NCBI RefSeq assembly: GCF_001677475.2
Contig: NZ_CP015229.1
From: Escherichia coli
Lineage (GTDB): Bacteria > Pseudomonadota > Gammaproteobacteria > Enterobacterales > Enterobacteriaceae
Strand: one strand, 5' to 3'
Length of the DNA stretch: 64,000 nt
Shown: positions 55,436 to 55,678 of the stretch, piece by piece
How the letters are laid out: each line of letters begins with the position of its first letter
How positions within the stretch are numbered: position 1 is the first letter of the stretch
Notes under the pieces: generated by a model
What the model was told of the DNA's origin: nothing
The model's database searches: none
Seen by the model: only the letters and a program-made list of their open reading frames with translations
Made by a program: the position numbers and the translations under genes

Positions 55436-55549
55436 TCACCACCAACGGATTGCCCAGACCAGAACAGCAATGGCTACAATACGAATGGCAAAAGCTGCCG
55501 CTCTTGTTAAATCCAGACTGGCTGGCGTCTCCACTTCAATGCCTTTCAT
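55436..55549 (-). CDS. hypothetical 37-aa tail-anchored membrane peptide upstream of Rz
   Basis: hand translation [44 protein letters not shown]; stop 1 nt before Rz ATG; below ORF-track cutoff. Confidence 0.35.
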
Positions 55550-55648
55550 AATGGACAACCTCAGAAAGAATCTTTTATACTTCCTCACAGGGAAAGCACC
55601 TCCCTACCCATAATTTCTCCCTTGCCTTATCCAAGGTCAGAAACACAA

Positions 55649-55678
55649 CCCCGCTTGCGACCAACAAACGGGGTTTTT
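55649..55678. terminator. hairpin with T-run between endolysin and Rz module
   Basis: CCCCGCTTG...CAAACGGGG stem followed by TTTTT on plus strand. Confidence 0.4.

What the first reader, a model, noticed from the sequence alone, without database searches (positions are those of the whole stretch)
55436..55678. Unannotated 37-aa tail-anchored peptide translationally coupled to Rz, after a hairpin
Between the endolysin stop and Rz lies a 220-nt spacer with a hairpin/T-run (55649-55678) and then a 37-aa ORF ([44 protein letters not shown]) whose stop is 1 nt from the Rz ATG. It is below the ORF-track size cutoff. A small membrane peptide here could modulate spanin function or lysis timing; the canonical lambda arrangement has no gene here.
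Basis: seen in the sequence. Interest (0 to 1): 0.45.

Follow-up and report, generated by a model that had tools for sequence, protein, structure and literature searches.

The report
Conserved small membrane-protein gene before Rz
The small reading frame between the phage lysozyme and spanin genes is a real gene under selection, from a little-known family of tiny phage membrane proteins; databases already list it as hypothetical, it probably starts 13 codons earlier than reported, and its role in host-cell lysis is untested.

Summary
The ORF, the TGAtATG junction with Rz and the upstream hairpin are all present as described. It is a real gene. Against a deeply diverged copy in phages with a different endolysin and a different downstream gene, 24 of 111 nt differ, 20 of them at codon position 3 and none at position 2 (pN 0.054, pS 0.71).

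"Unannotated" is wrong. RefSeq lists it as WP_000675931.1, a hypothetical protein. It matches PHROG 4493, and is related to PHROGs 1115 and 3246, all of unknown function.

The likely start is GTG 55588, giving 50 aa. That codon is ATG, GTG or TTG in 22 of 23 representative relatives.

The family is narrow: E. coli and Salmonella prophages, 21 clusters among 1.84 billion representatives. It lies mostly in lysis cassettes, often directly before Rz. A bidirectional terminator-like hairpin precedes the gene in 106 of 113 contexts.

Best reading: a late-expressed inner-membrane peptide anchored by its C-terminal helix, acting as an accessory lysis factor. In this short form its translation also feeds ribosomes to Rz. 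Function is inferred, not shown. A hok/sok-like antisense RNA remains a weaker rival.

The parts
55436..55588 (-). Small-protein gene, long form: GTG start, 50 aa, [50 protein letters not shown]. This is the probable true extent.
   Evidence: ORF listed. The 50-aa form scores 86.7 bits (E 1.4e-24) against PHROG 4493, versus 59.2 bits for the 37-aa form. The homologous codon is ATG in 12, GTG in 9 and TTG in 1 of 23 representative relatives. Remote homologues keep the N-terminal x-Y-[KR]-[KR]-x-F-x-x-R-L-s-M pattern.
55436..55549 (-). Possibly a second, internal start giving a short isoform.
   Evidence: annotated. Window versus group B: 24 nt differences, 4/0/20 by codon position, pN 0.054, pS 0.71. 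The internal ATG is invariant in the 23 representatives. GAGG upstream is built from the Arg codon AGG in 21 of 23.
55432..55438 (-). TGAtATG junction: stop of the small gene, one base, start of Rz. The last codons CGT TGG TGG TGA form an SD-like GGTGGTGA for Rz.
   Evidence: In all 51 unique contexts of the RWW-ending form the gap to the next ATG is exactly 1 nt.
55647..55675 (.). GC-rich hairpin flanked by an A-run (55676-55690) and a T-rich tail (55637-55646): a bidirectional intrinsic-terminator-like element that travels with the gene.
   Evidence: Present upstream of the family gene in 106 of 113 unique contexts, including remote members L250, L251, L252 and L093 with different stem sequences. 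Of 12 consensus pairs, 4 show compensatory double changes.
55589..55646 (-). Conserved structured leader. It holds a small hairpin CCTTG-N7-CAAGG (55620-55636), SD1 AAGGGAGAA (55615-55623), and SD2 GGGAGG (55599-55604) inside the hairpin AGGGA..TCCCT that abuts the GTG.
   Evidence: Alignments: the leader is about 90% identical between E. coli and Salmonella, while synonymous sites in the ORF are near saturation. Fold of 55540-55690: -45.6 kcal/mol, z = -2.58.
55585..55611 (-). Eight-codon mini-ORF (ATG GGT AGG GAG GTG CTT TCC CTG TGA) whose TGA overlaps the GTG start as GTGA. Found only in the 'long-leader' variant and possibly incidental.
   Evidence: Read. Kept in Salmonella L091 and L092, but it has no start codon in L090 and is missing from the short-leader variant.
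55552..55581 (+). Promoter-like site antisense to the gene's 5' end (TGGACA-18-TATACT). It would give an RNA of about 90 nt ending at the hairpin. Status uncertain.
   Evidence: 10 of 12 matches, but the number of sites found in the region equals the shuffle expectation. The -10 is invariant in the 23 representatives and kept in L252, but lost in the remote members L250 and L251.
55768..56301 (-). Endolysin R: a phage lysozyme with an N-terminal segment that looks like a signal-anchor-release (SAR) domain, MNTKIKYGLSAAVLALIAAGAPAP.
   Evidence: PF00959, E 3.2e-24; PHROG 7 endolysin. The SAR assignment is inferred from the sequence and from the P21-type holin upstream.
54967..55434 (-). Rz (inner-membrane spanin subunit), 155 aa. 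Rz1 (outer-membrane lipoprotein subunit) is embedded at 55008-55214.
   Evidence: PF03245, E 6.8e-40; PHROG 13 Rz-like spanin. The embedded ORF has a lipobox, LVVSAC.
57399..57614 (-). Class II (phage 21-type) holin. It marks the start of the lysis cassette.
   Evidence: PF04971, E 2.1e-32; PHROG 20/9876 holin.

Best explanation
This is a genuine small protein-coding gene of the phage lysis operon. It belongs to an uncharacterised family of phage membrane peptides (PHROG 4493, related to 1115 and 3246).

The product is probably 50 aa from GTG 55588, perhaps together with a 37-aa isoform from ATG 55549. It has a basic N-terminal segment, an acidic linker with a conserved G-x-E-x-x-x-P motif, and a 25-residue C-terminal hydrophobic helix ending in RWW.

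Inferred mechanism:
1. The gene has no sense-strand promoter of its own and sits behind an intrinsic terminator. It would therefore be transcribed mainly by the Q-modified, terminator-resistant late polymerase, together with holin, endolysin and spanin.
2. The peptide inserts into the inner membrane by its C-terminal helix and acts as an accessory lysis factor. Candidate roles are timing, endolysin release or spanin control.
3. In this short RWW form, termination at TGA one base before the Rz ATG hands ribosomes to Rz. This would replace the R-Rz overlap coupling that the insertion broke.

Shown here: the gene is real, it is under selection, it belongs to the family, and the hairpin and junction are conserved. 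Inferred: late-only expression, membrane insertion, coupling, and any lysis function.
For: Coding:
- 24 of 111 nt differ from the group B copy, 4/0/20 by codon position, pN/pS about 0.08. Simulation gave P < 1e-5.
- Substitutions are conservative: I/V/L only.

Family:
- PHROG 4493, E 1.4e-24.
- A 60-aa paralogue occurs in E. coli, E. marmotae and Salmonella.
- Only 21 clusters reach E <= 1e-3 among 1.84 billion representatives.

Start codon:
- ATG, GTG or TTG at the homologous site in 22 of 23 representatives.
- The N-terminal pattern is kept in remote homologues.

Lysis context:
- Directly upstream of Rz behind three different holin/endolysin combinations in Salmonella.
- At the head of a holin-endolysin cassette in L251.
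- Before Rz in a Salmonella prophage remnant.

Coupling: a 1-nt gap in 51 of 51 unique contexts of the RWW form.

Hairpin: present in 106 of 113 contexts, with compensatory stem changes.

Promoter: no sense-strand promoter-like site found in 54900-56500.

Helix: AlphaFold2 predicts helix 25-49 with pLDDT about 90. Kyte-Doolittle mean is 2.1 over residues 29-47.
Against: - No expression or phenotype data were found for any family member.
- There is no homology to holins, antiholins, releasin, spanins, defence proteins or type I toxins.
- The hydrophobic segment carries two Arg residues and is only marginal for insertion: a simple biological-scale sum gives +2.0 kcal/mol.
- Some relatives lie after tail-fibre genes, not in a recognisable lysis cassette.
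- The Rz initiation region is not unusually structured (z = +0.83), and GGTGG could serve as an independent Shine-Dalgarno site. Coupling may therefore not be required.
- A terminator placed 5' of a gene is odd for a plain operon member.
Confidence: 0.55

Rival explanations
1. A hok/sok-like type I toxin-antitoxin module. The hydrophobic peptide would be a membrane toxin whose translation is held down by the structured leader and by a cis-antisense RNA of about 90 nt. That RNA would start at the + strand promoter-like site 55552-55581 and stop at the bidirectional hairpin.
For: - Promoter-like TGGACA-18-TATACT with 10 of 12 matches, correctly placed and oriented 60-95 nt from a hairpin with a strong T-run on that strand.
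- The -10 is invariant in the 23 representatives and kept in L252. It survives in L093 although the encoded N-terminus differs there.
- The hairpin travels with the gene rather than with the upstream gene.
- The SD is sequestered in the leader, and a mini-ORF overlaps the start as mok does in hok.
- The leader is more conserved than synonymous sites in the ORF.
Against: - The -10 is lost in remote members L250 (TTG TAC) and L251 (GTT TAT CGA), which still keep the hairpin.
- The -10 coincides with conserved Lys-Tyr codons, so protein constraint can explain it.
- The number of promoter-like sites found in the region equals the shuffle expectation.
- In the window-type E. coli copies the hairpin is more stable on the sense strand: -19 to -21.6 versus -12.4 to -14.2 kcal/mol.
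- No Rfam family reaches threshold; only sub-threshold leader-type matches appear. There is no Hok-type Pfam match.
- The gene is co-oriented and tightly packed within the late operon.
Confidence: 0.15
2. A moron-type accessory gene expressed from the prophage for the benefit of the lysogen, for example superinfection exclusion or membrane modulation, with no role in lysis.
For: - The R-Rz junction is a known insertion hot spot. Antirepressor genes and other small genes sit there in relatives.
- The hairpin-plus-gene unit moves between unrelated contexts.
- A copy is kept in a Salmonella chromosomal prophage remnant found in 1647 blocks of the assembly index.
Against: - No sense-strand promoter-like site lies between hairpin and gene.
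- The terminator lies upstream rather than downstream, which would block rather than permit lysogenic expression.
- The gene has a tight 1-nt junction with Rz.
- No PADLOC defence-family match.
Confidence: 0.15
3. Only a coupling device. What matters is that something is translated up to the Rz start; the peptide itself has no function.
For: - The 1-nt stop-start gap is invariant.
- The RWW-stop codons double as an SD-like GGTGGTGA.
- A 28-aa N-terminally truncated copy serves in the same position in L003 and L007.
Against: - The amino-acid sequence is under strong purifying selection over its whole length.
- The 60-aa paralogues are not coupled to Rz: gaps are 10-17 nt with a separate SD.
- Relatives occur where no Rz follows.
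Confidence: 0.1
4. Not a gene: a chance ORF, a remnant, or the shadow of the 47-aa + strand ORF at 55470-55613.
For: - Short ORFs of this size are common by chance.
- The antisense frame is also open in most close relatives and shows only 6 amino-acid changes between the two groups.
Against: - The 4/0/20 codon-position pattern fits the sense frame, where all position-1 changes are I/V/L swaps. In the antisense frame those changes fall on position 2.
- The antisense frame carries stops in L250 and L251.
- Start codons, SD sites, co-orientation and HMM-level homology all support the sense frame.
Confidence: 0.03

Closest known systems
PHROG 4493 (with related PHROGs 1115 and 3246); RefSeq WP_000675931.1
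   Same: Direct HMM membership (E 1.4e-24) and identical protein sequence. Same position between lysozyme and Rz in hundreds of E. coli prophages.
   Different: Nothing differs, but the family has no assigned function, so membership explains nothing about mechanism.
Lambda S105/S107 and phage 21 S68/S71 dual-start holin/antiholin pairs
   Same: Small membrane proteins of the lysis cassette. Two in-frame starts a few codons apart, where the longer product carries extra N-terminal positive charge. Here the 13-residue extension has a net charge of about +5.
   Different: No sequence similarity to any holin Pfam or PHROG family. One C-terminal helix instead of two or three transmembrane domains. 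The gene lies after the endolysin. Use of both starts is not shown.
Phage Mu gp25 'releasin' (DUF2730)
   Same: A single-helix membrane-tethered accessory protein encoded a few genes downstream of a SAR endolysin and next to the spanins. It modulates endolysin release without being a holin (PMC9239132).
   Different: gp25 is 99 aa with an N-terminal transmembrane domain and an anionic cytoplasmic domain. There is no DUF2730 match here. The present family also accompanies non-SAR endolysins, including M15 peptidase and glycoside hydrolase 19.
hok/sok (and other type I toxin-antitoxin loci)
   Same: A hydrophobic peptide of about 50 aa, a structured leader that hides the SD, a short upstream ORF overlapping the start, and a possible short antisense RNA with its own terminator.
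   Different: No Hok Pfam or Sok/hok Rfam match. The hydrophobic helix is C-terminal. The antisense promoter is not conserved in remote members. The gene is embedded co-directionally in the late operon.
Canonical lambda-type R-Rz overlap coupling
   Same: Rz translation follows directly on termination of the preceding cistron. In K-12 Qin, rrrQ and rzpQ overlap by 4 nt. Here the preceding cistron is the small gene, 1 nt away.
   Different: An extra cistron and a terminator hairpin have been inserted between R and Rz.

Membership tests
PHROG 4493 small phage protein family (unknown function) | Significant match to the family profile over its full length | tested here: met
   50-aa form: E 1.4e-24, 86.7 bits, profile positions 1-54 of 56. 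37-aa form: E 5.5e-16.
PHROG 4493 small phage protein family (unknown function) | Reading frame conserved under purifying selection in homologous loci | tested here: met
   pN 0.054, pS 0.71; differences 4/0/20 by codon position; P < 1e-5.
Holin / antiholin | Similarity to a known holin or antiholin family | tested here: not met
   No holin family in the Pfam or PHROG scans of the peptide. The real holin of the cassette, scanned in the same calls, does match.
Holin / antiholin | Dual translational start giving products that differ in N-terminal charge | tested here: inconclusive
   Two conserved in-frame start codons, each with an SD-like site. Use of both starts cannot be tested with these tools.
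Holin / antiholin | Forms membrane lesions or sets lysis timing | not testable with these tools
   Needs induction, lysis-curve and membrane-potential experiments.
Releasin (Mu gp25, DUF2730) | DUF2730 domain with an N-terminal transmembrane domain and a cytoplasmic acidic domain | tested here: not met
   No Pfam match. The hydrophobic helix is C-terminal.
Spanin (inner-membrane, outer-membrane or single-chain) | N-terminal transmembrane domain plus a periplasmic coiled coil, or a lipobox signal peptide | tested here: not met
   No spanin PHROG match. No lipobox, and no periplasmic domain is possible in 50 aa. Rz and Rz1 are separate genes downstream.
Type I toxin-antitoxin (hok/sok-like) | Small hydrophobic peptide with a structured leader that represses translation | tested here: met
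   Hydropathy. Leader fold z = -2.58 with both SD sites paired.
Type I toxin-antitoxin (hok/sok-like) | Cis-encoded antisense RNA with its own promoter and terminator, conserved across the family | tested here: inconclusive
   The promoter-like site is conserved in close relatives but lost in L250 and L251. The terminator is present throughout. No transcript data.
Type I toxin-antitoxin (hok/sok-like) | Match to a known toxin or antitoxin RNA family | tested here: not met
   Rfam with E up to 1: nothing in the window. Related loci give only sub-threshold leader-type matches. No Pfam match.
Tail-anchored membrane protein | Single hydrophobic helix at the extreme C-terminus, no signal peptide | tested here: met
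   AlphaFold2 helix 25-49 of 50, pLDDT about 90. Kyte-Doolittle 2.1 over residues 29-47. The segment contains two Arg residues, so insertion is only marginally favourable.
Tail-anchored membrane protein | Demonstrated membrane insertion and topology | not testable with these tools
   Needs fractionation and reporter-fusion experiments.
Anti-phage defence protein | Match to a PADLOC model | tested here: not met
   No match at E up to 1.

The most novel reading that the evidence does not exclude
The unit of terminator hairpin, structured leader and dual-start peptide gene is a previously unrecognised, self-contained lysis-control cassette. The long, highly basic isoform and the short isoform would adopt opposite membrane topologies, as lambda S107 and S105 do. 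Their ratio, set by the leader structure, would tune the timing of SAR-endolysin release or spanin action. Alternatively, it is a new type I toxin-antitoxin-like module with a cis-antisense RNA embedded in a phage late operon.
Probability: 0.15. Interest if true: 0.65.

Novelty: new member of a known kind. Interest (0 to 1): 0.4.

Why it matters
Phage lysis of Gram-negative hosts is usually described with three parts: holin, endolysin and spanin. Extra players such as the Mu releasin have appeared only recently. This gene is under strong selection, sits inside the lysis cassette of prophages in at least 667 of 5426 complete E. coli genomes (many of them Shiga-toxin strains) and in Salmonella, and has never been studied. 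If it tunes lysis timing or spanin expression, it would affect phage and toxin release from pathogenic strains. The tight link between the gene and a 5' terminator hairpin is also an unexplained piece of operon design.

Tried and rejected
- The 37-aa peptide is too short for the large protein word search, so the 50-aa frame was used instead.
- Rfam found nothing in 54000-58000 at E up to 1. Related loci gave only sub-threshold rimP/rnk leader-type matches on the antisense strand.
- The known prophage sRNAs (Pas, AgvB, AsxR, STnc100) map upstream of the holin, not here.
- Full-text search for the peptide or its accession found no paper.
- The Sakai ribosome-profiling supplements contain no matching peptide.
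- The EDL933 transcription-start supplements contain no matching sequence.
- The supplements of the Hfq crosslinking study in E. coli O157 (Tree et al. 2014, PMC4104026) gave nothing usable for this locus.
- Pfam, NCBIfam and PADLOC gave no match for the peptide or its paralogues.
- tblastn with the 37-aa peptide against the phage collection was crippled by the low-complexity filter.
- The second scan of viral contigs returned the same close relatives as the first.
- Considered and rejected: remnant of an endolysin 3' end (the peptide is instead a paralogue of the 60-aa family); antisense shadow ORF; inner-membrane spanin role in phages where a lipoprotein follows (wrong topology and size); a universal mini-uORF (absent from many relatives).

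Full report
**Observation**

The lysis genes lie on the minus strand:
- P21-type class II holin, 57399-57614
- a 213-aa ORF of unknown function, 56754-57395
- lysozyme R, 55768-56301
- a 218-nt spacer
- the 37-codon ORF, 55549-55436
- Rz, 55434-54967, with Rz1 embedded

The terminator scan reports a 12-pair stem at 55675-55647 on the minus strand. It folds at -19.0 kcal/mol on that strand and -12.4 on the + strand, where the T-run is stronger. In the canonical arrangement R and Rz overlap: K-12 Qin rrrQ and rzpQ share 4 nt.

**It is already annotated**

The 421-nt region matches 2094 E. coli records. At least 80% of it is present in 667 of 5426 complete genomes. In those genomes PGAP annotates the identical 37-aa protein as WP_000675931.1, 'hypothetical protein', between 'lysozyme' and 'lysis protein'. 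Phage GER2 annotates it too. So 'unannotated' does not hold for public records.

**It is a real coding gene**

IMG/VR loci fall into two deep groups:
- Group A is the window type: lysozyme R, then the ORF, then Rz.
- Group B (for example phiSTEC1575-Stx2k) has an M15 peptidase endolysin, a different upstream gene, and a 60-aa lipoprotein (PHROG 7528) downstream instead of Rz.

Homology between the groups runs only from the hairpin to about 8 nt into the downstream gene.

Within the ORF, 24 of 111 nt differ, 4/0/20 by codon position. There are four amino-acid changes, all I/V/L swaps. pN is 0.054 and pS is 0.71. In 100,000 simulations of 24 random substitutions, none gave 4 or fewer amino-acid changes without a stop.

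The antisense frame whose wobble positions coincide with the sense wobble is also open in close relatives. It carries stops in remote members L250 and L251, and it lacks start signals. I therefore treat it as a shadow frame.

**Family**

The peptide matches PHROG 4493, and more weakly 1115 and 3246, all of unknown function. It has no Pfam, NCBIfam or PADLOC match.

It is a C-terminally shorter paralogue of a 60-aa protein found in E. coli, E. marmotae and Salmonella prophages. The consensus of that protein is MxKYKRILLRLTMKNGLEVxAPVTDEISxAVAFAIKWVAVGIAVSPVLYGLAKLIIALKS. Hybrid and truncated forms show recombination between tandem paralogues.

A profile search of 1.84 billion cluster representatives found only 21 clusters at E <= 1e-3. 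The family is narrow.

**Start codon**

In an alignment of 23 representative leaders, the codon homologous to window 55588-55586 is ATG in 12, GTG in 9 and TTG in 1. The 50-aa form gains 27 bits against PHROG 4493. Remote homologues keep the N-terminal pattern, for example RQYKRILMRLTM, KLYRKFFRMRLSM and TVYRKTFRLRISM. The protein therefore probably starts at GTG 55588.

The internal ATG is nevertheless invariant. It is preceded by GAGG formed by the Arg codon AGG in 21 of 23 representatives. From general knowledge, AGG is the rarest Arg codon in E. coli. A dual start producing 50-aa and 37-aa isoforms is therefore possible, though unproven.

**Protein features**

AlphaFold2, run on an 18-sequence alignment, gives:
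- a low-confidence helix at residues 4-14
- a linker
- a confident helix at residues 25-49, pLDDT about 90

The best 19-residue hydropathy window (residues 29-47) averages 2.1 on the Kyte-Doolittle scale. It contains two Arg residues, and its simple biological-scale sum is +2.0 kcal/mol, which is marginal for insertion. 'Tail-anchored' is a fair description of the sequence, but insertion is not shown.

**Gene neighbourhood**

- In Salmonella, the 60-aa gene sits 10-20 nt upstream of Rz. This holds behind three different holin/endolysin combinations, once with an antirepressor gene in between.
- A 49-aa member ending in RWW lies 1 nt before Rz in a Salmonella chromosomal prophage remnant found in 1647 blocks of the assembly index.
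- In metagenomic locus L251, two tandem members head a cassette of holin, small transmembrane proteins and a SAR-type endolysin.
- Other members follow tail-fibre genes.
- For the RWW-ending short form, the gap to the next ATG is 1 nt in all 51 unique contexts. Rz follows in 26 and the lipoprotein in 25.

The final codons CGT TGG TGG TGA form an SD-like GGTGGTGA. This fits termination-reinitiation coupling. However, the Rz initiation region is not unusually structured, so coupling may not be obligatory.

**Hairpin and leader**

A GC-rich hairpin with A- and T-runs on its two sides precedes the family gene in 106 of 113 unique contexts. The exceptions are truncated second copies and one mutated stem.

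Remote members have different stem sequences: CCCCG/CGGGG, GCCCG/CGGGC, GCCCC/GGGGC and CGCCCCGG/CCGGGGCG. RNAalifold finds 12 pairs, 4 of them with compensatory double changes. In L251 each tandem paralogue has its own copy of the hairpin. The hairpin therefore belongs to the gene unit and not to the upstream gene.

The leader between hairpin and start is about 90% identical between E. coli and Salmonella, although synonymous sites in the ORF are near saturation. It folds with both SD-like sites paired (z = -2.58).

There are two leader variants:
- a short one, in which AAGGGAGAAC is followed directly by the ATG start
- a long one, present in the window, with a 30-nt insert that creates an 8-codon mini-ORF overlapping the GTG as GTGA

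The mini-ORF is not universal.

**Antisense RNA idea**

A promoter-like site on the + strand (55552-55581, 10 of 12 matches) points at the hairpin. It would give an RNA of about 90 nt. Its -10 is invariant in the 23 representatives and kept in L252. It is lost in L250 and L251, which still keep the hairpin. It also coincides with the conserved Lys-Tyr codons. No Rfam family matches. I rate this hok/sok-like reading at about 15%.

**Mechanism (inference)**

No sense-strand promoter-like site was found, and a terminator lies in front of the gene. The gene is therefore probably read only by Q-modified late polymerase, together with the other lysis genes. The peptide probably inserts into the inner membrane and acts as an accessory lysis factor. 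In the short form its translation also feeds ribosomes to Rz.

No literature or expression data bear on this. The nearest functional analogies are dual-start holin/antiholin pairs and the Mu releasin. The peptide is homologous to neither.

**Verdict**

The gene belongs to an already catalogued but uncharacterised family. Interest is moderate.

Noticed in passing
L003 1826-1957; L006 1923-2054; L007 1658-1789: A second small membrane-protein family occupies the same R-Rz interval in related phages: 43 aa, MSDKLITPAKVLCVIVGISFSLMLVALFLSLAWVMLSSSGLLG, PHROG 4906. It is usually 12-17 nt after the 60-aa gene.
   Followed up: partly
L007 1560-1655; L251 3305-3403: A third small transmembrane family, PHROG 6632, 31-32 aa with a W(K/R)FLL(V/L)WLI motif. 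The L251 member also ends in RWW and lies 3 nt before a SAR-type endolysin. The RWW-stop ending recurs in small membrane proteins of other PHROG families that the scans do not link to this one.
   Followed up: partly
L008 1916-2098 and 24 other unique contexts: In group B phages the small gene is coupled (1-nt gap) to a 60-aa lipoprotein, MNRKHWTHRMPRTTAKWALVAIPVPFLLVGC..., PHROG 7528, function unknown. These phages have an M15 endolysin and two holins, and no Rz is annotated in that stretch. This raises the question of what serves as their spanin.
   Followed up: partly
L006 2117-2524: In the plaque-forming phage PhiR5_2 the annotated Rz starts at MATDHYRDNAI and lacks the N-terminal transmembrane domain. 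The 43-aa transmembrane peptide lies 62 nt upstream. This may be a split or degraded inner-membrane spanin subunit.
   Followed up: no
L253 and L254 2501-3101: A Salmonella chromosomal prophage remnant keeps only the 49-aa family member plus Rz (1-nt gap). It lies between a hydrolase gene and an IS110 transposase, near tmcA and sopD-like genes. The index lists it in 1647 blocks of the assembly collection.
   Followed up: no
window 56376-56744 (+) and 56754-57395 (-): Two genes of unknown function sit inside the lysis cassette between holin and endolysin: a 213-aa ORF (PHROG 1085) and an oppositely oriented ORF of about 113-122 aa. Terminator-like hairpins lie at 56355-56378.
   Followed up: no
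window 55470-55613 (+): A 47-aa ORF runs antisense to the small gene and stays open in close relatives. I judge it a shadow frame because it carries stops in L250 and L251.
   Followed up: yes
L091 477-701; L092 160-360: Full-length STnc100 sRNA matches (86-100 bits) lie upstream of the holin in the Salmonella prophages that carry the 60-aa gene.
   Followed up: no
window 54967-55470 (-); L009 1925-2428: The Rz frame is open for 12 codons upstream of its ATG, overlapping the end of the small gene in another frame. Where the small gene is disrupted (L009), annotators call a 167-aa Rz from an upstream ATG.
   Followed up: no
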